Assembly: GCF_030013595.1 (NCBI RefSeq)
Contig: NZ_CP122768.1
Reading direction: 5' to 3' (one strand)
DNA: 64,000 nucleotides
Source of the DNA: Escherichia coli
Lineage (GTDB): Bacteria > Pseudomonadota > Gammaproteobacteria > Enterobacterales > Enterobacteriaceae
Shown: piece after piece, positions 5,131-13,588 of the stretch
How positions within the stretch are numbered: the stretch's first letter is position 1
Layout: every line of letters starts with the position of its first letter
Position numbers and translations under genes: made by a program
Notes under the pieces: generated by a model
What the model was told of the DNA's origin: nothing
The model's input: the letters and a program-made list of their open reading frames with translations, nothing else
Databases searched by the model: none

Positions 5131-5135
5131 ACACT

Positions 5136-5166
5136 GCCGGATGCGGCGCGAGCGCCTTATTCGGCC
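5136..5166. repeat. REP element (gccggatgcggcg...ccttattcggcc palindrome) between rhaA and rhaD
   Basis: Imperfect palindrome with REP consensus GCCGGATGCGGCG seen directly. Confidence 0.6.
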
Positions 5167-5212
5167 GACAGATCGTGCATCCGACAACACCGAATTTACA
5201 GGAACACCGAAC

Positions 5213-6046: not shown

Positions 6047-6361
6047 ATGATCCGCAAAGCCTTTGTCATGCAGGTTAACCCCGACGCCCACGAAGAGTAT
6101 CAGCGTCGGCATAATCCAATCTGGCCGGAACTGGAAGCAGTGTTGAAATCTCACGGTGCGCATAACTACGCCATTTACCTCGACAAAGCGCGTAATCTGC
6201 TGTTTGCCACGGTAGAGATTGAATCTGAAGAACGGTGGAATGCGGTAGCCAGTACTGATGTTTGCCAACGTTGGTGGAAGTATATGACCGACGTTATGCC
6301 CGCTAACCCGGATAACAGCCCGGTGAGTAGCGAGCTGCAAGAAGTGTTTTACCTGCCTTAA
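6047..6361 (+). CDS. rhaM: L-rhamnose mutarotase
   Basis: 104-aa ORF directly after rhaD. Confidence 0.9.
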
Positions 6362-6401
6362 TGAGTTGCGGTGCCGGAAAATATCCAGCACCGCGCCTTC
6401 A

Positions 6402-7796
6402 TCAGAAGAAGTATTTAAAGCGAACGCGTGCCCCGTAACGGTCATCAGTATCATCACCGTGTTTTTTATCACCGTCGCTATCCAGAATGGAGTAATACGT
6501 CCCGAGGTAAATATTAAAGTTCTCCATATCCATCACATTAGCGAACTGATAAGACGCATGAATGGTGTGAATGGTGTACGTCCCTTCATCATCAATCCAG
6601 CAGTCGTTATCACAAACTACACCGCTGAATTCATCAATCTTATTGTGCGCGTAGATATAACCCAGCTCGAAACGTTTCCACAGCGCGTTAATCCCGGCAG
6701 TGAAATCTTTCTCATTATTAGCATCTAAATAGGCGGTATTAAGATTAACCACGACGCCATTTTCCGGATCCGTTTTCAGGCCATTCCAGGTCATGCTCAT
6801 ACCATAGCCGGTACGATCGGACTGATCGACAAAATTACCCTTGCTATCGGTATAACCATAAGCATTATTTACCACGTTCGCTTCCATCGCTGCGGAAACG
6901 GTAAATTCTTCCGTCGGCGACCAGGCAATTACCGGACGCAGATAAGCAACATTTTTCTGCTGCTCCATATCGCGCCCATGATAATTACCGTCATTATATA
7001 AAGATGTTCCGTCTTCAAGTAACGTGTTTAATTCAAAATACCAGTTATCAAGTTGTTTGCTGACGAGAAAATTACCGCCAGCGTTAGAGCGCCCGCGGCC
7101 CTCTTTCATCATATAGATATAACCGCTGCCATCGTCATAAAGATCGTTCGCAGTATTACCGGAATGTTCAACAAAGGTATCCTGATTCAGCGGGAACATA
7201 TCGTAGGCTTCAAAACGGCCTACTTTGACCTTCCAGTCGTTTTCTTTGCCAAAGAAGAATACCGCATCATCGATATTTACTGAACCGTGCATATCCCCCA
7301 GCGGTTGTGCGGAGAACCCGGCGAAATAGCCATTAGCCAGTTTTCGCATACCATCAAAACCTAACAGAATACGACCATTGAGATTCCACTGTTCATTAGT
7401 GGGATCGCTATTCACATCAGCGTTGGTCATTGCCAGCAGGCCATGATTACTTTCTGCATCCATATTAAATTCTACGTCGCCGTAGATTTTTAAATCGCCA
7501 TAACCTGAGAGCAAAAGATTAGGTGAGGTGGAATTTTTCTTTGCAGATTCCGCCGTTGCCTGTCCATTTACCGGCGTATTGCCCTGGGCAGCCTTAATTT
7601 CGCGGATCTCAGCGGCTTGTTGTGTCTGCAGCTGTTTAACCTGGCTCTCTGCTTTTGCTGCCCGCATTTCTGCAGCTTCCAGGCGTTCTTCCAGCAATGC
7701 CATGCGTTGTTCCAGCGTTAAATGCTGTGTTTTTGCCATTCCGGTACTACATGCCAATAATAAACCGATGGCTAAAGATAATGTCGATTTTTTCAT
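6402..7796 (-). CDS. Outer-membrane carbohydrate-porin-like protein with N-terminal coiled-coil extension (LamB/ScrY-type)
   Basis: 464 aa; signal peptide MKKSTLSLAIGLLLACSTGMA; Ala/Glu/Gln-rich heptad region; Tyr/Gly/Asn-rich beta-barrel-like body; C-terminal ...RFKYFF; lower GC than flanks. Confidence 0.75.
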   Translation of the reverse strand: MKKSTLSLAIGLLLACSTGMAKTQHLTLEQRMALLEERLEAAEMRAAKAESQVKQLQTQQAAEIREIKAAQGNTPVNGQATAESAKKNSTSPNLLLSGYGDLKIYGDVEFNMDAESNHGLLAMTNADVNSDPTNEQWNLNGRILLGFDGMRKLANGYFAGFSAQPLGDMHGSVNIDDAVFFFGKENDWKVKVGRFEAYDMFPLNQDTFVEHSGNTANDLYDDGSGYIYMMKEGRGRSNAGGNFLVSKQLDNWYFELNTLLEDGTSLYNDGNYHGRDMEQQKNVAYLRPVIAWSPTEEFTVSAAMEANVVNNAYGYTDSKGNFVDQSDRTGYGMSMTWNGLKTDPENGVVVNLNTAYLDANNEKDFTAGINALWKRFELGYIYAHNKIDEFSGVVCDNDCWIDDEGTYTIHTIHASYQFANVMDMENFNIYLGTYYSILDSDGDKKHGDDTDDRYGARVRFKYFF

Positions 7797-8272
7797 TATT
7801 TACGTTCCCTGAAATAAAAGAGACCCTACGCTTTCCAAAAGGAATACGTATATAGAGAAATATAAGGTGTGCACTTTCGAATTTTTAATCCAACTTCAGC
7901 AGGCCGATGGATAGTATCCCGCTGCATAATATGAGTAAATCCGCTGATTTCCTGGAACGTGAGGAATATAACAATAGTGCCGTTTTTAACCAAATATCGT
8001 AAAAAATATTAGATATAATTCACGCTGACTCATAAGCCACAAATATAAATAACCTTGCTGCAAAACATGTGCGGCAGTTAAACATTCACAACATCATTAA
8101 ATAATGATTTTTTATTCACTGCATTTATTTTGCCCATCAATATGTGCCTTACACCGCAAAATTTATCCTTCACTCTGCCTTATATTGTCACGACTTCACG
8201 ACATATCCGCGCTCATCACAAAACCGCCCCGCCGTTACAATTAACTATAATATTTTTTCATGGAGTCCAATA

Positions 8273-8719
8273 ATGGCAGCACTTACTGCAAGCTGTATTG
8301 ACCTGAATATTCAGGGCAATGGCACTTATTCCGTTCTGAAGCAGTTGGCGACAATGGCGTTACAAAACGGTTTTATCACCGACTCACATCAATTCCTGCA
8401 AACCCTGCTGCTGCGCGAAAAAATGCACTCCACGGGATTTGGTTCCGGTGTCGCCGTGCCGCACGGTAAAAGCGCCTGCGTTAAACAACCGTTCGTGTTA
8501 TTCGCCCGCAAAGCGCAGGCCATTGACTGGCAGGCCAGCGATGGCGAAGACGTCAATTGTTGGATCTGCCTCGGCGTGCCGCAAAGTGGCGAAGAGGAAC
8601 AGGTCAAAATCATCGGCACACTATGCCGCAAAATTATCCACCAGGATTTTATCGACCAACTGCGACAGGGCGACGCCGACCAGGTGCTTGCTTTGTTAAA
8701 TCAAACCCTCAGCTCATAA
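8273..8719 (+). CDS. frvA: PTS fructose-like EIIA component
   Basis: Start set to ATG 8273 inside ORF 8144..8719; 148 aa. Confidence 0.9.
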   Translation: MAALTASCIDLNIQGNGTYSVLKQLATMALQNGFITDSHQFLQTLLLREKMHSTGFGSGVAVPHGKSACVKQPFVLFARKAQAIDWQASDGEDVNCWICLGVPQSGEEEQVKIIGTLCRKIIHQDFIDQLRQGDADQVLALLNQTLSS

Positions 8720-8723
8720 GGAA

Positions 8724-10181
8724 GTGGCGATGGAGTCATCCTTACGTATTGTCGCGATCACCAACTGCCCCGCCGGGATCGCTCACACCTACATGGTGGC
8801 GGAAGCCCTGGAACAGAAAGCCCGTTCTCTCGGTCATACCATTAAAGTTGAAACTCAAGGATCAAGCGGCGTCGAAAACCGCTTATCCAGCGAAGAGATT
8901 GCCGCTGCCGATTACGTGATTTTCGCCACCGGGCGTGGCCTGAGCGGTGACGATCGCGCGCGATTTGCCGGGAAAATGGTTTATGAGATTGCCATCTCCC
9001 AGGCGCTGAAAAATATCGACCAGATTTTCAGTGAATTACCGACAAACTCACAGCTTTTTGCCGCAGATAGCGGCGTGAAGCTCGGCAAACAGGAAGTGCA
9101 AAGTGGCAGCGTAATGAGCCATCTGATGGCGGGTGTCTCTGCGGCGCTGCCGTTTGTCATCGGTGGCGGTATCCTGGTGGCGCTTGCCAACATGCTGGTG
9201 CAGTTCGGTTTGCCGTATACCGATATGTCGAAAGGCGCGCCGTCGTTTACCTGGGTGGTTGAATCCATCGGTTATCTCGGCTTCACCTTTATGATCCCCA
9301 TCATGGGCGCTTATATTGCCTCGTCGATTGCCGATAAACCCGCTTTCGCTCCGGCGTTTCTGGTTTGCTATCTGGCGAATGACAAAGCCCTGCTCGGCAC
9401 CCAGTCTGGCGCGGGCTTCCTCGGCGCGGTGGTGCTGGGGCTGGCGATTGGCTATTTCGTCTTCTGGTTCCGTAAAGTGCGCCTTGGCAAAGCATTACAA
9501 CCGCTGCTCGGTTCCATGCTGATCCCGTTCGTCACTCTGCTGGTTTTCGGCGTACTGACTTACTACGTTATCGGACCGGTGATGTCCGACCTCATGGGCG
9601 GGTTGCTGCACTTCCTGAACACCATTCCTCCGTCAATGAAGTTTGCGGCAGCGTTTTTGGTCGGTGCGATGCTGGCGTTCGATATGGGCGGCCCTATCAA
9701 TAAAACCGCCTGGTTCTTCTGCTTCTCACTGCTGGAAAAACACATTTACGACTGGTACGCCATCGTCGGCGTTGTCGCGCTGATGCCGCCTGTCGCGGCG
9801 GGTCTTGCGACGTTCATTGCGCCCAAACTGTTTACCCGACAGGAAAAAGAGGCTGCCAGTAGTGCCATTGTGGTCGGTGCCACAGTCGCAACCGAACCGG
9901 CTATTCCTTACGCTCTGGCAGCTCCGTTGCCGATGATTACCGCCAATACGCTGGCGGGCGGTATTACCGGCGTGCTGGTGATCGCTTTCGGAATCAAACG
10001 TCTGGCGCCAGGTTTGGGTATCTTTGACCCGCTGATCGGCCTGATGTCGCCGGTGGGTTCGTTTTATCTGGTGCTGGCGATTGGCCTCGCGCTGAACATT
10101 TCATTCATTATCGTCCTGAAAGGATTATGGTTACGCCGCAAAGCCAAAGCTGCGCAACAGGAGCTTGTCCATGAACATTGA
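8724..10181 (+). CDS. frvB: PTS fructose-like EIIBC component
   Basis: 485-aa polytopic membrane protein directly after frvA. Confidence 0.9.
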   Translation: MAMESSLRIVAITNCPAGIAHTYMVAEALEQKARSLGHTIKVETQGSSGVENRLSSEEIAAADYVIFATGRGLSGDDRARFAGKMVYEIAISQALKNIDQIFSELPTNSQLFAADSGVKLGKQEVQSGSVMSHLMAGVSAALPFVIGGGILVALANMLVQFGLPYTDMSKGAPSFTWVVESIGYLGFTFMIPIMGAYIASSIADKPAFAPAFLVCYLANDKALLGTQSGAGFLGAVVLGLAIGYFVFWFRKVRLGKALQPLLGSMLIPFVTLLVFGVLTYYVIGPVMSDLMGGLLHFLNTIPPSMKFAAAFLVGAMLAFDMGGPINKTAWFFCFSLLEKHIYDWYAIVGVVALMPPVAAGLATFIAPKLFTRQEKEAASSAIVVGATVATEPAIPYALAAPLPMITANTLAGGITGVLVIAFGIKRLAPGLGIFDPLIGLMSPVGSFYLVLAIGLALNISFIIVLKGLWLRRKAKAAQQELVHEH

Positions 10182-11241
10182 GTTACTGCAACAGTTGTGC
10201 GAAGCCAGCGCCGTCAGCGGCGATGAACAGGAGGTTCGCGACATTCTGATAAACACGCTGAAATCCTGCGTGAATGAAATAACCTTCGATGGGCTGGGCA
10301 GCTTTGTTGCCCGTAAGGGAAGTAAAGGTCCAAAAGTTGCCGTTGTCGGGCATATGGATGAAGTCGGCTTTATGGTCACCCACATCGACGAGAGCGGTTT
10401 TCTGCGCTTTACCACCATTGGCGGCTGGTGGAATCAGTCGATGCTCAACCACCGGGTAACCATACGCACACACAAGGGATTTAAAATCCCTGGTGTGATT
10501 GGTTCCGTCGCGCCACATGCGTTAACCGAAAAGCAAAAGCAACAGCCGCTGTCATTTGATGAGATGTTCATTGATATTGGCGCGAACAGCCGCGAAGAAG
10601 CGGAAAAACGCGGCGTGGAAATTGGTAATTTTATTAGCCCGGAAGCCAATTTTGCCTGCTGGGGCGAAGATAAAGTGGTCGGCAAGGCGTTGGATAACCG
10701 CATCGGCTGCGCAATGATGGCTGAGCTATTGCAGACGGTGAATAATCCCGAAATTACGCTGTATGGCGTTGGCAGTGTGGAAGAAGAAGTTGGCCTGCGC
10801 GGGGCGCAAACCTCGGCTGAACACATTAAACCGGATGTGGTGATCGTGCTGGATACCGCCGTAGCGGGCGATGTTCCGGGCATTGATAACATAAAATACC
10901 CGCTGAAACTGGGCCAGGGGCCGGGGCTGATGCTGTTTGACAAGCGCTACTTCCCCAACCAGAAACTGGTAGCAGCGTTAAAAAGCTGTGCCGCACATAA
11001 TGATTTACCGCTGCAATTTTCCACTATGAAAACCGGTGCGACGGATGGCGGGCGCTACAACGTGATGGGTGGCGGTCGCCCGGTTGTCGCGCTGTGCCTG
11101 CCAACTCGTTATCTGCACGCCAACAGCGGCATGATTTCAAAAGCCGATTACGATGCTCTGCTCACGTTGATACGGGATTTTCTGACCACCTTAACCGCGG
11201 AGAAAGTCAACGCGTTTAGCCAGTTCCGTCAGGTGGATTAA
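10165..11241 (+). CDS. frvX: M42-family peptidase/cellulase-like protein FrvX
   Basis: 358-aa ORF overlapping frvB by 17 nt. Confidence 0.9.
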   Translation: MSMNIELLQQLCEASAVSGDEQEVRDILINTLKSCVNEITFDGLGSFVARKGSKGPKVAVVGHMDEVGFMVTHIDESGFLRFTTIGGWWNQSMLNHRVTIRTHKGFKIPGVIGSVAPHALTEKQKQQPLSFDEMFIDIGANSREEAEKRGVEIGNFISPEANFACWGEDKVVGKALDNRIGCAMMAELLQTVNNPEITLYGVGSVEEEVGLRGAQTSAEHIKPDVVIVLDTAVAGDVPGIDNIKYPLKLGQGPGLMLFDKRYFPNQKLVAALKSCAAHNDLPLQFSTMKTGATDGGRYNVMGGGRPVVALCLPTRYLHANSGMISKADYDALLTLIRDFLTTLTAEKVNAFSQFRQVD

Positions 11242-12989
11242 TGCTAAACGAACGCCAGTTAAAGATTGTCGATCTGCTGGAGCAACAGCCACGCACGCCT
11301 TGCGAGCTGGCGCAACAGACTGGCGTTTCTGGCAGGACCATCCTGCGTGATATTGACTATCTCAACTTTACCCTTAACGGCAAAGCCCGCATTTCTGCCA
11401 GTGGTAGTGCGGGCTATCAGCTGGAAATCTTCGAGCGCCGCAGCTTTTTTCAGTTGCTGCAAAAGCACGATAACGACGATCGGCTGCTGGCGCTGTTATT
11501 ACTGAATACTTTCACTCCCCGTGCGCAACTCGCCTCGGCGCTTAATTTGCCAGAAACGTGGGTCGCAGAGCGTCTGCCCCGCCTGAAACAGCGCTATGAA
11601 CGCGGTTTTTGTCTCGCTAGTCGCCCTGGTTTGGGCCATTTCATTGATGAGACAGAAGAGAAACGCATTATTTTGCTGGCGAATCTTTTACGCAAAGATC
11701 CGTTTTTAATTCCTCTGGCGGGCGTAACACGAGACAACCTTCAGCAATTATCCACGGTCTGCGACAACCAACACCGCTGGCCGCTGATGCAGGGTGATTA
11801 TCTCTCCAGCCTGATTCTGGCGATTTACGCCCTGCGTAATCAACTGACCGATGAGTGGCCGCAATATCCCGGTGACGAGATAAAACAAATCGTTGAACAA
11901 AGCGGCCTGTTTCTTGGTGATAACGCTGTAAGAACCCTGACGGGGTTGATAGAGAAACAGCATCAGCAAGCGCAGGTAATTTCAGCCGATAATGTGCAGG
12001 GGTTGCTGCAAAGAGTGCCGGGCATCGCGTCATTGAATATTATTGATACGCAGCTGGTTGAGAATATTACCGGGCATTTATTACGTTGCCTTGCCGCACC
12101 GGTGTGGATTGCTGAGCACCGCCAAAGCAGCATGAATAACCTGAAAGCCGCCTGGCCTGCGGCTTTTGATATGAGTCTGCACTTTATTACGCTACTGCGT
12201 GAACAGCTCGATATTCCCCTTTTCGACAGCGATCTGATCGGTTTGTATTTTGCCTGTGCGCTGGAACGACATCAAAACGAACGCCAGCCGATCATTTTGC
12301 TCTCGGACCAGAACGCGATTGCCACCATTAATCAGCTCGCCATTGAGCGCGATGTTTTACATTGTCGGGTGATTATTGCCCGTAGCTTAAGCGAACTTGT
12401 TGCCATTCGCGAAGAAATTGAGCCGTTATTGATCATTAACAACAGTCATTATTTACTGGATGACGCGGTAAATAATTACATCACCGTAAAAAATATCATT
12501 ACGGCTGCCGGTATCGAACAAATAAAACATTTTCTGGCGACGGCGTTTATTCGCCAGCAGCCGGAGCGTTTTTTCTCTGCCCCCGGAAGTTTTCATTTTT
12601 CGAATGTACGCGGTGAAAGCTGGCAACATATTACCCGGCAAATATGTGCACAATTAGTGACGCAACACCATATCACCGCCGATGAAGCGCAGCGCATCAT
12701 CGCCCGCGAAGGCGAAGGTGAAAACCTGATTGTTAATCGCCTCGCCATCCCCCATTGCTGGAGCGAACAGGAGCGACGTTTTCGTGGATTTTTTATTACC
12801 CTCGCCCACCCGATCGAGGTGAATAACGAAGTCATTAACCACGTGTTGATCGCCTGTGCCGCCGCCGATGCGCGTCACGAGTTGAAAATATTCAGCTATC
12901 TTGCCAGCGTCCTGTGTCAGCATCCGGCAGAAGTTATTGCCGGGTTAACAGGATATGAGGCATTTATGGAGTTACTTCACAAGGGGTGA
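11241..12989 (+). CDS. frvR: frv operon regulator with HTH and PTS regulation domains
   Basis: 582-aa ORF whose start overlaps frvX stop. Confidence 0.9.
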   Translation: MLNERQLKIVDLLEQQPRTPCELAQQTGVSGRTILRDIDYLNFTLNGKARISASGSAGYQLEIFERRSFFQLLQKHDNDDRLLALLLLNTFTPRAQLASALNLPETWVAERLPRLKQRYERGFCLASRPGLGHFIDETEEKRIILLANLLRKDPFLIPLAGVTRDNLQQLSTVCDNQHRWPLMQGDYLSSLILAIYALRNQLTDEWPQYPGDEIKQIVEQSGLFLGDNAVRTLTGLIEKQHQQAQVISADNVQGLLQRVPGIASLNIIDTQLVENITGHLLRCLAAPVWIAEHRQSSMNNLKAAWPAAFDMSLHFITLLREQLDIPLFDSDLIGLYFACALERHQNERQPIILLSDQNAIATINQLAIERDVLHCRVIIARSLSELVAIREEIEPLLIINNSHYLLDDAVNNYITVKNIITAAGIEQIKHFLATAFIRQQPERFFSAPGSFHFSNVRGESWQHITRQICAQLVTQHHITADEAQRIIAREGEGENLIVNRLAIPHCWSEQERRFRGFFITLAHPIEVNNEVINHVLIACAAADARHELKIFSYLASVLCQHPAEVIAGLTGYEAFMELLHKG

Positions 12990-13588
12990 ACTGTGTCGGA
13001 TGCGCCGCATCCGACACTGCATTTATCACCAAAATCAAAAATGTTTAACGCAAGCTATTATAGTCATCGACCATTTCGTTGTACTCGCGTAACGCTCGCG
13101 GAAATGAGTCGTCGACCATCCAGCTGGTGTTTGCATCCTGAAGTTGCTCTTTATCCCAGTCAGAGTACGGAACTTTATCTCTGACGCGGCGAACATATTT
13201 TTTAGCCTCGAGTTGATACTGGTCTGCCGAATTAATGAACGAGAAATTCATACCGCCTTTATCCGCTTCTTTGGCCTGCGCCACCAGCGTTTCCAGTTCA
13301 GAGACTTTCTTCATTGCCGCATCAACATCAAACTTCTCTTGCGAAATCAGGTTATTAATTTGTTTCGCTGAAATCATGACTGCCAGAGAGTAGTAGTGGA
13401 ATGTTTTCCCTTCTCTTTGTTCAATATTTTTCAGTTCCGCAAGCTGGCGCTTATCGTTAATTTCCTGAATCGCCGCATGATAAGATTCTGCTACAGGTTC
13501 AAAGGCTTCAAGATTTTTTAAGAATGTCTGGTGGGTGATGCTGCCAACTTACTGATTTAGTGTATGATGGTGTTTTTGAGGTGCTCCA

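What the first reader, a model, noticed from the sequence alone, without database searches (positions are those of the whole stretch)
6362..8272. Carbohydrate-porin-like gene with N-terminal coiled coil inserted between rhaM and frvA
Seen: a 464-aa minus-strand ORF (6402..7796) with a classical signal peptide, an Ala/Glu/Gln/Lys-rich heptad segment of about 50 residues, a Tyr/Gly/Asn/Asp-rich body and a C-terminal aromatic residue (…RFKYFF). This is the architecture of ScrY/LamB-type sugar porins that carry a periplasmic coiled-coil extension. It is convergent with rhaM across a small hairpin (6368..6394) and separated from frvA by a 476-bp AT-rich region. Established knowledge, from memory: frvA and rhaM are adjacent in K-12, so this gene is accessory at this position. 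Its substrate, and whether it serves the cryptic frv PTS or rhamnose-related oligosaccharides, is unknown.
Basis: partly seen in the sequence, partly recalled or inferred. Interest (0 to 1): 0.45.

Follow-up and report, generated by a model that had tools for sequence, protein, structure and literature searches.

The report
Orphan RafY-type sugar porin gene
This is an ordinary, already annotated outer-membrane sugar channel of the RafY (raffinose porin) family, carried by about half of E. coli strains next to the rhamnose genes and lost, rather than never gained, in the K-12 laboratory strain.

Summary
A 464-aa minus-strand ORF (6402..7796) has a signal peptide, a heptad coiled coil, an Asp/Gly/Asn/Tyr-rich body and a C-terminal ...RFKYFF. 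It is convergent with rhaM across a strong hairpin and lies 476 bp from frvA.

The barrel is a full-length match to Pfam PF16966, "glycoporin RafY" (E 5e-154), and the protein is 79% identical to the plasmid raf-operon porin RafY. It is not LamB/ScrY. The AlphaFold model shows about 16 strands and resembles 16-stranded trimeric porins more than ScrY or LamB. Only the N-terminal coil is ScrY-like (Sugarporin_N).

RefSeq calls the gene "carbohydrate porin" and an O157:H7 paper calls it rafY2. It is in 2557 of 5426 complete E. coli genomes. Orthologs occupy the same frv–porin–rhaM neighbourhood in Citrobacter, Kluyvera, Klebsiella, Enterobacter and others. In Klebsiella and Enterobacter they sit beside rafR-rafA-rafB. 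So the gene is probably ancestral here, an orphan of a chromosomal raf locus, and K-12 lost it. B2 strains keep it but lack frvABXR.

It is under purifying selection and has a conserved CRP-like promoter.

Known kind, low novelty.

The parts
6402..7796 (-). CDS of the RafY-family glycoporin (464 aa, stop codon included). RefSeq name 'carbohydrate porin'; called rafY2 in O157:H7 literature.
   Evidence: ORF. PF16966 at E 5e-154. 79 % identity to the plasmid raf-operon porin. RefSeq annotation. The rafY2 name is in PMC4809568.
7734..7796 (-). Signal peptide, residues 1-21 (MKKSTLSLAIGLLLACSTGMA). Predicted signal peptidase I cleavage is after A21.
   Evidence: Sequence features and family alignment. 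No dedicated predictor was available.
7587..7724 (-). Periplasmic N-terminal coiled-coil extension, residues about 25-70 (Sugarporin_N-like).
   Evidence: Heptad register. Helix 28-70 in the model. PF11471 at E 0.06 here, and at E <= 1e-3 in 20 of 44 relatives.
6405..7487 (-). Beta-barrel domain, residues 104-464 (Porin_8/RafY). About 16 strands, a conserved C395-x3-C399 loop, and a C-terminal ...RFKYFF.
6368..6394 (.). G+C-rich hairpin between the convergent rhaM and porin genes. Likely a shared 3'-end structure or weak bidirectional terminator, without a U-tract.
   Evidence: The fold of 6355..6410 is -28.1 kcal/mol with z -6.1. The terminator scan does not call it. Other genera have a different hairpin at the same place.
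7958..7973 (-). Conserved CRP-like site TGTTATATTCCTCACG, centred about -61.5 from the predicted transcription start.
   Evidence: Two mismatches to TGTGA-N6-TCACA. 13 of 16 columns are invariant in 7 sequences from 5 genera, against 58 % mean column identity. Present upstream of 14 of 15 orthologs and 0 of 16 paralogs.
7911..7939 (-). Predicted sigma-70 promoter: -35 TTTACT (7939..7934), 17-bp spacer, -10 TACTAT (7916..7911). Inferred start near 7904.
   Evidence: The 18-nt gap after the CRP-like site and the TTTAC -35 element are conserved while the bases between them vary. At 8 of 12 matches it falls below the generic scan threshold. This is inference, not a mapped start.
7828..7849 (-). 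Hairpin in the 5' untranslated region, ACGTATTCC-TTTT-GGAAAGCGT. The Shine-Dalgarno AGGGA follows at 7806..7810.
   Evidence: Most genera fold a stem-loop at this position from different sequences. No formal covariation test was run.
6363..8137 (.). The 1775-bp segment (porin gene plus 341 bp upstream) that K-12 replaces with 164 bp of unrelated sequence.
   Evidence: Pairwise BLAST of the window against the K-12 locus. The K-12 164 bp matches none of the loci held at that point, L001-L014.

Best explanation
The gene encodes a chromosomal ortholog of RafY, the raffinose-plasmid glycoporin (Pfam PF16966, TCDB 1.B.15).

**Export and structure.** The protein is exported with a cleavable signal peptide. 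It is inserted into the outer membrane as a barrel of about 16 strands, most likely trimeric. Its N-terminal ScrY-like coiled coil hangs into the periplasm.

**Function (by analogy).** RafY was reported to be a wide general-diffusion pore rather than a sugar-binding channel. By analogy, this protein would let di- to oligosaccharides too bulky for OmpF/OmpC cross the outer membrane faster at low concentration. Candidates are raffinose and stachyose-type alpha-galactosides, sucrose and maltodextrins. Inner-membrane carriers that the strain has anyway (LacY, MelB and others) would then take them up.

**Regulation (inferred).** It is transcribed on its own from a promoter in the 476-bp spacer. That promoter carries a conserved CRP-like site at about -61.5, so expression is probably switched on under catabolite-derepressing conditions.

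**Evolution.** It is the surviving member of an old chromosomal frv–(regulator)–rafRAB–rafY–rhaM neighbourhood. E. coli lost rafRAB, and the K-12 lineage lost the porin too.

**Shown versus inferred.**
- Shown here: family membership, architecture, distribution, synteny, purifying selection and promoter conservation.
- Inferred: pore properties, substrates, trimer state and CRP control.
For: - **Family and identity:** PF16966 over the full model, E 5e-154. 79 % identity over 450 aa to the porin that follows rafR-rafA-rafB-rafD on an E. coli IncF plasmid.
- **Fold:** the model has 16 long strands plus helix 28-70. The best fold matches are 16-stranded trimeric porins, including DcaP.
- **N-terminal coil:** Sugarporin_N is found across the family.
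- **Distribution:** the gene covers >= 80 % of the query in 2557 of 5426 complete E. coli genomes and is always annotated 'carbohydrate porin'.
- **Selection:** the window and ST95 alleles differ by 54 synonymous and 12 nonsynonymous codons.
- **Synteny:** orthologs keep the same position in Citrobacter, Kluyvera, Klebsiella, Pseudocitrobacter, Superficieibacter and Enterobacter. rafR-rafA-rafB is adjacent in Klebsiella sp. B345, K. spallanzanii and Enterobacter spp..
- **Paralog contexts:** more distant paralogs sit beside LacY-like permease plus GH32, or beside GPH-type permeases.
- **Promoter:** the footprint is in 14 of 15 orthologs.
[quoted passage not shown] The title of Andersen et al. 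[quoted passage not shown] A RafY-family porin, GlyP, is sufficient for a fitness gain in OmpK35/36-deficient K. pneumoniae (bioRxiv 10.64898/2026.03.29.715108).
Against: - No experiment on this chromosomal E. coli gene was found. The one paper naming it (rafY2) only lists it next to a raffinose phenotype.
- The structural model is of moderate confidence: mean pLDDT 63.6, with loops 119-134, 200-237 and 264-280 below 50. Strand number and pore size are therefore provisional.
- The CRP-like site has an imperfect left half (TGTTA). At two mismatches such sites are no more frequent in the window than in shuffles (21 against 26 expected). Only its conservation argues for function, and the bound factor could be something else.
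- E. coli strains with this gene usually lack rafA/rafB/rafD, so raffinose need not be the relevant substrate.
Confidence: 0.82

Rival explanations
1. It is a LamB/ScrY-family sugar-specific porin: an 18-stranded barrel with an internal sugar-binding 'greasy slide'.
Against: There is no PF02264 match at E <= 10, while PF16966 matches end to end. Sequence search finds no ScrY or LamB among solved structures, even at E <= 10. The model has 16 strands, and eleven 16-stranded porins outrank ScrY. The title of Andersen et al. 1998 says RafY is not carbohydrate-specific.
Confidence: 0.05
2. It is the outer-membrane partner of a neighbouring system. It would feed either the cryptic frvABXR PTS or a rhamnose-oligosaccharide route ending in rhaBADM.
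For: Adjacency to rhaM and/or frvA is conserved across many genera.
Against: - The gene is convergent with rhaM and divergent from frvA, so it shares a transcript with neither.
- About 1180 E. coli genomes carry the porin without a contiguous frvA. In ST95 this is because frvABXR is deleted.
- In Citrobacter the upstream flank carries HTH-cupin and azlCD rather than frv, and the two Enterobacter loci show no rhaM in the stretch examined. So both flanks vary between genera.
- The only catabolic genes that repeatedly sit beside the ortholog are rafR-rafA-rafB.
Confidence: 0.07
3. It is a decaying leftover of a lost raf operon: silent or functionless, and on its way to deletion as in K-12.
For: rafRAB are missing in E. 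coli. The gene is absent from about half of genomes. Some strains carry an IS1 insertion or only a 77-bp 3' remnant (H36 and H55). The AT-rich upstream region (36 % G+C) is the kind H-NS often silences, which is my own inference.
Against: The ORF is intact at full length in 2557 genomes. The 54 synonymous against 12 nonsynonymous codon differences between distant alleles indicate purifying selection. Promoter elements are conserved across genera, including those without rafRAB nearby.
Confidence: 0.06

Closest known systems
RafY, glycoporin of the plasmid raf operon (pRSD2-type; Pfam PF16966 Porin_8; TCDB 1.B.15)
   Same: Same length (464 aa) and 79 % identity. The architecture is the same: signal peptide, coiled coil, Porin_8 barrel, conserved CxxxC loop and C-terminal ...RFKYFF.
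   Different: This gene is chromosomal, at the rhaM-frvA junction, and has no rafR/A/B/D beside it. It has its own 476-bp upstream region with a CRP-like promoter that the plasmid rafD-rafY spacer lacks. It has not been tested experimentally.
Chromosomal RafY orthologs of Klebsiella sp. B345, K. spallanzanii and Enterobacter spp. (rafR-rafA-rafB-porin next to rhaM or frvA)
   Same: 71-76 % identity, the same chromosomal neighbourhood, and in three of the four loci the same promoter motif; it was not found upstream of the K. spallanzanii ortholog, L016.
   Different: Those loci keep the LacI-type repressor, GH36 alpha-galactosidase and LacY-type permease. E. coli, Citrobacter and Kluyvera keep only the porin.
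GlyP of Klebsiella pneumoniae, a RafY-family porin in the glyR-permease-hydrolase-porin operon
   Same: It belongs to the same Pfam/TCDB family. It is described as an alternative larger-pore porin whose expression changes nutrient access when the major porins are lost.
   Different: It is repressed by a LacI-type regulator and is part of an operon. It probably belongs to the paralog group that I find beside LacY-like and GH32 genes (50-62 % identity). I could not verify that assignment.
ScrY sucrose porin / LamB maltoporin (Pfam PF02264, TCDB 1.B.3)
   Same: The physiological role is the same: outer-membrane passage of oligosaccharides. ScrY shares the N-terminal Sugarporin_N coiled coil.
   Different: The barrels show no detectable sequence relationship. 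ScrY and LamB have 18 strands and an internal sugar-binding site, against a predicted 16-stranded general-porin-like barrel here.
DcaP of Acinetobacter baumannii (PDB 6eus)
   Different: Only 12 % identity, a different family, and it carries dicarboxylates rather than sugars.

Membership tests
RafY glycoporin family (Pfam PF16966 Porin_8 / TCDB 1.B.15) | Significant end-to-end match to the family profile | tested here: met
   PF16966 at E 5.2e-154, with residues 104-464 covering model positions 1-372 of 372. All 44 aligned relatives also match.
RafY glycoporin family (Pfam PF16966 Porin_8 / TCDB 1.B.15) | Close similarity to the founding member encoded downstream of rafR-rafA-rafB-rafD | tested here: met
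   79 % identity and 86 % positives over 450 aa to the porin of a plasmid raf operon. That plasmid is not pRSD2 itself, whose sequence I did not hold.
RafY glycoporin family (Pfam PF16966 Porin_8 / TCDB 1.B.15) | Outer-membrane beta-barrel with signal peptide and C-terminal aromatic beta-signal; 16 predicted strands | tested here: met
   The signal peptide and the ...RFKYFF terminus are seen. The AlphaFold model has 16 long strands. TCDB predicts 16 strands for the family (PMC4827864). The model confidence is only moderate (pLDDT 63.6).
RafY glycoporin family (Pfam PF16966 Porin_8 / TCDB 1.B.15) | Forms a wide general-diffusion channel that speeds uptake of raffinose, sucrose, maltose and maltodextrins | not testable with these tools
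   This needs bilayer, liposome-swelling or uptake assays. It is known for plasmid RafY only (papers cited).
RafY glycoporin family (Pfam PF16966 Porin_8 / TCDB 1.B.15) | Genetic linkage to raffinose catabolic genes | tested here: not met
   No raf genes lie near the gene in the window or in the identical RefSeq locus. The linkage is present for orthologs in Klebsiella and Enterobacter. This is a feature of the operon, not of the protein family.
LamB/ScrY sugar porin family (Pfam PF02264 / TCDB 1.B.3) | Match to the LamB profile or to ScrY/LamB sequences | tested here: not met
   PF02264 is not among the hits at E <= 10. Sequence search finds no ScrY or LamB chain in the PDB at E <= 10.
LamB/ScrY sugar porin family (Pfam PF02264 / TCDB 1.B.3) | 18-stranded barrel | tested here: not met
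LamB/ScrY sugar porin family (Pfam PF02264 / TCDB 1.B.3) | N-terminal periplasmic coiled-coil extension (ScrY; Pfam PF11471 Sugarporin_N) | tested here: met
   The hit is weak in this protein (E 0.06, residues 27-54). It is significant in 20 of 44 close relatives, and 43 of 44 reach E <= 0.1. The heptad register and predicted helix agree.
LamB/ScrY sugar porin family (Pfam PF02264 / TCDB 1.B.3) | Aromatic greasy slide and saturable sugar binding in the channel | not testable with these tools
   This needs a structure or sugar-titration electrophysiology.
OprB carbohydrate-selective porin family (Pfam PF04966) | Match to the OprB profile | tested here: not met

The most novel reading that the evidence does not exclude
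The orphan porin is kept in E. coli lineages such as ST131, ST95 and O157:H7 not for raffinose but as a CRP-controlled, wide-bore back-up porin. It would alter nutrient competition in the gut and the permeability of bulky antibiotics, as GlyP does in porin-deficient K. pneumoniae. The E. coli allele might also be lipid-anchored through its lineage-specific LLAC motif.
Probability: 0.2. Interest if true: 0.5.

Novelty: already known. Interest (0 to 1): 0.15.

Why it matters
It matters little as a discovery. The family, its founding member and the RefSeq annotation of this very gene already exist.

The modest value is in tidying the picture:
- The gene is RafY-type, not LamB/ScrY-type.
- It is an ancestral neighbour of the rha and frv loci that K-12 lost, so K-12-based knowledge simply misses it.
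- It survives under purifying selection, with its own conserved CRP-like promoter, in about 47 % of complete E. coli genomes, including major pathogenic lineages.

A RafY-family porin was recently shown to compensate for loss of the major porins in K. pneumoniae. The E. coli gene is therefore a reasonable candidate to examine in studies of oligosaccharide foraging, gut competition and antibiotic permeability.

Tried and rejected
- **NCBIfam scan:** no family at E <= 0.01, so the RefSeq name does not come from an NCBIfam HMM.
- **PDB by sequence:** only chance hits to dehydroquinase at E about 0.3. No solved RafY-family structure was found this way.
- **Generic promoter and terminator scan of 6300..8300:** three promoter-like hits against 5.0 expected, and none of them is the conserved promoter. 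The rhaM/porin hairpin is not called because it lacks a T-run.
- **CRP pattern alone:** not enriched in the window (21 against 26 expected). The site is credited only because of cross-genus conservation.
- **Remnant search in K-12:** K-12's 164-bp replacement matches none of the loci held at that point, L001-L014. The deletion mechanism and its endpoints remain unexplained. A loose resemblance between the two rhaM-proximal hairpins was judged too weak to use.
- **Lipoprotein reading of C16 (LLAC):** set aside. The Cys is not conserved in the family, where most members have V-A-N, and position -2 is atypical.
- **Original RafY paper:** Ulmke et al. 1997 (PMC179467) is not held. A search for frvA/rhaM/porin found nothing relevant.
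- **Insertion by a mobile element:** rejected. No IS, integrase or repeats flank the gene, and the synteny is shared across genera.
Full report
**Observation.**

The ORF list gives a 464-aa ORF at 6402..7796 on the minus strand with an ATG start. Its features are as described:
- The N-terminus MKKSTLSLAIGLLLACSTGMA|KTQ has the charge, hydrophobic core and small residues at -3/-1 of a signal peptide. The cleavage region aligns with ...TG[FMV]A|KT in relatives.
- Residues 25-70 keep a single heptad register, with 11 of 15 a/d positions hydrophobic, and are rich in Ala/Gln/Glu/Leu.
- The body is rich in Asp/Gly/Asn/Tyr.
- The protein ends in ...RFKYFF.
- The rhaM stop is at 6359..6361.
- The hairpin at 6368..6394 folds at -28.1 kcal/mol within 6355..6410 (z = -6.1). 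It has no T-run, and the terminator scan does not report it.
- The spacer to frvA (7797..8272) is 476 bp with 36 % G+C.

**What the protein is.**

- Pfam gives one significant hit: PF16966 Porin_8, 'Porin-like glycoporin RafY', E 5.2e-154. It covers residues 104-464 and the whole model.
- LamB (PF02264) and OprB (PF04966) do not appear, even at E <= 10.
- NCBIfam has no model for it, and no solved structure is detectable by sequence.
- On E. coli plasmids, an 86 %-identical DNA match lies directly downstream of a LacI-family regulator, a GH36 alpha-galactosidase, an MFS permease and a GH32 hydrolase. That is the raf operon, so the plasmid gene is rafY.
- The window protein is 79 % identical to it over 450 residues and has the same length.
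- RefSeq annotates the chromosomal gene as 'carbohydrate porin' in every genome listed.
- A comparative study of O157:H7 mentions a rafY homolog annotated rafY2 in strains that lack rafRABD (PMC4809568).

**Fold.**

I predicted the structure with AlphaFold2 on a 44-sequence family alignment.
- Mean pLDDT is 63.6 and pTM is 0.60.
- The model has a long helix at 28-70 and 16 long beta-strands.
- Three loop regions have low confidence.
- Foldseek against the PDB returns only 16-stranded porins at the top: OmpU, VhChiP, OprB, Rhodobacter porins and OmpF/OmpC.
- This agrees with the 16 strands that a TCDB-based survey predicts for family 1.B.15. The same survey places that family nearest the sugar porins (PMC4827864).
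- The barrel is therefore of the general-porin class, with the caveat of a moderate-confidence model.

**N-terminal extension.**

- In this protein, Pfam Sugarporin_N (PF11471, the ScrY-type periplasmic extension) scores only E 0.06.
- Scanning each of 44 relatives, 20 reach E <= 1e-3 and 43 reach E <= 0.1.
- The residues E29, R31, E36, R38, E43, R45, A46, A49 and E50 are invariant in the family.
The architecture is Sugarporin_N plus a RafY barrel.

**Distribution in E. coli.**

- The gene covers at least 80 % of the query in 2557 of 5426 complete genomes.
- 1378 genomes have the whole rhaM-porin-frvA arrangement of the window.
- About 1180 more have rhaM-porin without a contiguous frvA.
- In ST95, homology runs from rhaM to window 8255 and then jumps to 13064, inside yiiG. 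So frvABXR is deleted while the porin and its upstream region are kept.
- ST131 and an O6:K2:H1 strain also carry the porin gene (H45, H14); H14, like H10-H13, matches only as far as the porin's upstream region.
- In K-12 (DH1), rhaM and frvA are 300 bp apart. Window 6363..8137 (1775 bp) is replaced by 164 bp that match none of the loci held at that point, L001-L014.
- Occasional strains have an IS1 in the gene or only a 77-bp 3' remnant (H36 and H55).
- The window and ST95 alleles are 95 % identical in DNA. They differ by 54 synonymous and 12 nonsynonymous codons, which is the pattern of a gene under purifying selection.

**Synteny beyond E. coli.**

| Organisms | Identity | Arrangement |
|---|---|---|
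| Citrobacter spp., including C. rodentium | 81-84 % | Convergent with rhaM, downstream of an HTH-cupin gene |
| Kluyvera | 79-83 % | Same; in Kluyvera genomosp. 1, frvBA lies just beyond the HTH-cupin gene |
| Klebsiella sp. B345, K. spallanzanii | 74-76 % | HTH-cupin, rafR (LacI), rafA (GH36), rafB (LacY-type), porin, then convergent rhaM |
| Two Enterobacter species | 71-75 % | Porin divergent from frvA, as in E. coli, and followed by rafR-rafA-rafB |
| Pseudocitrobacter, Superficieibacter, isolate RIT691 | 70-74 % | Fit the same map |

Every ortholog of >= 70 % identity that I recovered lies in one neighbourhood: frvBA – (HTH-cupin) – (rafRAB) – porin – rhaM. The parsimonious reading has three parts:
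- The porin is ancestral at this junction.
- E. coli, Citrobacter and Kluyvera retain it as an orphan of a chromosomal raf cluster.
- The K-12-type allele is a secondary loss, not the ground state.

More distant paralogs (48-64 % identity) sit next to LacY-like permease plus GH32 in eight loci. Five loci have a GPH-type permease just upstream of the porin, and others have different sugar genes. This supports a general role of the family in oligosaccharide uptake.

**Regulation (inferred).**

- Aligning the upstream regions from five genera gives 58 % mean column identity. Against that background there is a nearly invariant block, TGTTAyxTyxCTCACG (window 7973..7958 on the minus strand).
- The block is followed after exactly 18 variable bases by TTTAC, and after 17 more bases by a TAnTnT hexamer.
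- The block matches the CRP core TGTGA-N6-TCACA with two mismatches.
- With -35 at 7939..7934 and -10 at 7916..7911, the block is centred near -61.5. That is the classical class I activator position, from established knowledge of CRP promoters.
- The motif occurs upstream of 14 of 15 orthologs and none of 16 paralogs examined.
- The plasmid rafD-rafY spacer lacks it.
- A stem-loop about 30-50 nt before the start codon (7828..7849) recurs in most genera with different sequences.
- All of this is inference. No transcript data were available, and the pattern alone is not statistically enriched in the window.

**Mechanism.**

The literature on the family says the following:
- According to the title of Andersen et al. 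[quoted passage not shown]
- From my own memory of Ulmke et al. 1997, which I could not retrieve, RafY complements lamB and scrY mutants and passes stachyose and maltodextrins up to maltoheptaose.
- A 2026 preprint shows that a K. pneumoniae RafY-family porin, GlyP, alone confers the fitness gain in OmpK35/36-deficient cells once it is derepressed by LacI-type glyR mutations.

By homology, the window's protein most likely forms a wide, probably trimeric, outer-membrane channel. It would speed diffusion of oligosaccharides near or above the OmpF/OmpC size limit, and it would be expressed under catabolite derepression.

**Rivals.**

- A LamB/ScrY-type specific porin fails the profile and strand-number tests.
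- A dedicated frv or rhamnose partner is contradicted by gene orientation, by the B2 frv deletion and by the variable flanks.
- A functionless relic is contradicted by the intact ORFs, the purifying selection and the conserved promoter.

**Novelty and score.**

The gene is annotated in thousands of genomes, belongs to a curated Pfam/TCDB family with a characterised founding member, and has been named rafY2 in print. What is added here is context:
- correction of the family assignment;
- ancestral synteny and loss in K-12;
- the link to chromosomal raf clusters;
- a candidate CRP promoter.

That is useful housekeeping rather than a surprise. Novelty: already known. Interest: 0.15.

Noticed in passing
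window 8256..13063 (compare L002 8111..8799): In ST95, the whole frvABXR operon and the start of yiiG are deleted. The porin and its upstream region are retained, and yiiG is left as a truncated pseudogene. Other listed genomes whose match also ends in the porin's upstream region (H9-H14) may carry the same deletion, but only ST95 was examined.
   Followed up: partly
window 7749..7760 (residues 13-16, L-L-A-C): The E. coli allele has a lipobox-like LLAC inside the signal peptide, where most family members have V-A-N. The plasmid RafY has N-A-C. It is probably irrelevant because position -2 is atypical, but lipidation at C16 was not excluded.
   Followed up: partly
window 7828..7849 (-): A 5'-UTR stem-loop (ACGTATTCC-TTTT-GGAAAGCGT) lies about 30-50 nt before the porin start codon. 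Orthologs in Citrobacter, Kluyvera, Enterobacter and Klebsiella fold a hairpin at the same place from different sequences. This suggests a conserved mRNA structure (stability or sRNA/translation control). No formal covariation test was done.
   Followed up: partly
window 5131..5212 (rhaA-rhaD spacer) vs L003 1724..2173 and L002 4898..5173: The rhaA-rhaD intergenic region is 82 bp here. It is 450 bp in K-12 and 276 bp in ST95, so there is a variable insert between the two genes.
   Followed up: no
L005-L011 (e.g. L006 9747..10895); hit H29: Citrobacter, Kluyvera and Klebsiella carry an iron-containing alcohol dehydrogenase gene directly upstream of rhaM (between rhaD and rhaM in Citrobacter); Kluyvera and Klebsiella also have an ABC sugar transporter between rhaD and that gene. 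Most E. coli lack both. One E. coli (2013C_3997_C1) shows a 'fucO lactaldehyde reductase' at this locus.
   Followed up: no
L016, L021, L024, L032 (Klebsiella spallanzanii SB6411): One genome carries four RafY-family paralogs in different sugar-utilisation contexts: rafRAB, a GPH-type permease, LacY-like plus GH32, and one with no marker found. The family has expanded in Klebsiella.
   Followed up: partly
window 6600..6614 (residues 395-399, C-D-N-D-C): A Cys-x3-Cys motif in a predicted loop between strands is conserved across the family (consensus GVxCDxDCW). It is probably a disulfide-stapled loop.
   Followed up: no
L008 9393..9505 and L010 8396..8538: In C. rodentium and Kluyvera, the short spacer between the porin and rhaM also holds REP-like palindromes (GCCTGATGGCGC...GCGCTTATCAGGCC). 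These are absent from the 40-bp E. coli spacer.
   Followed up: no
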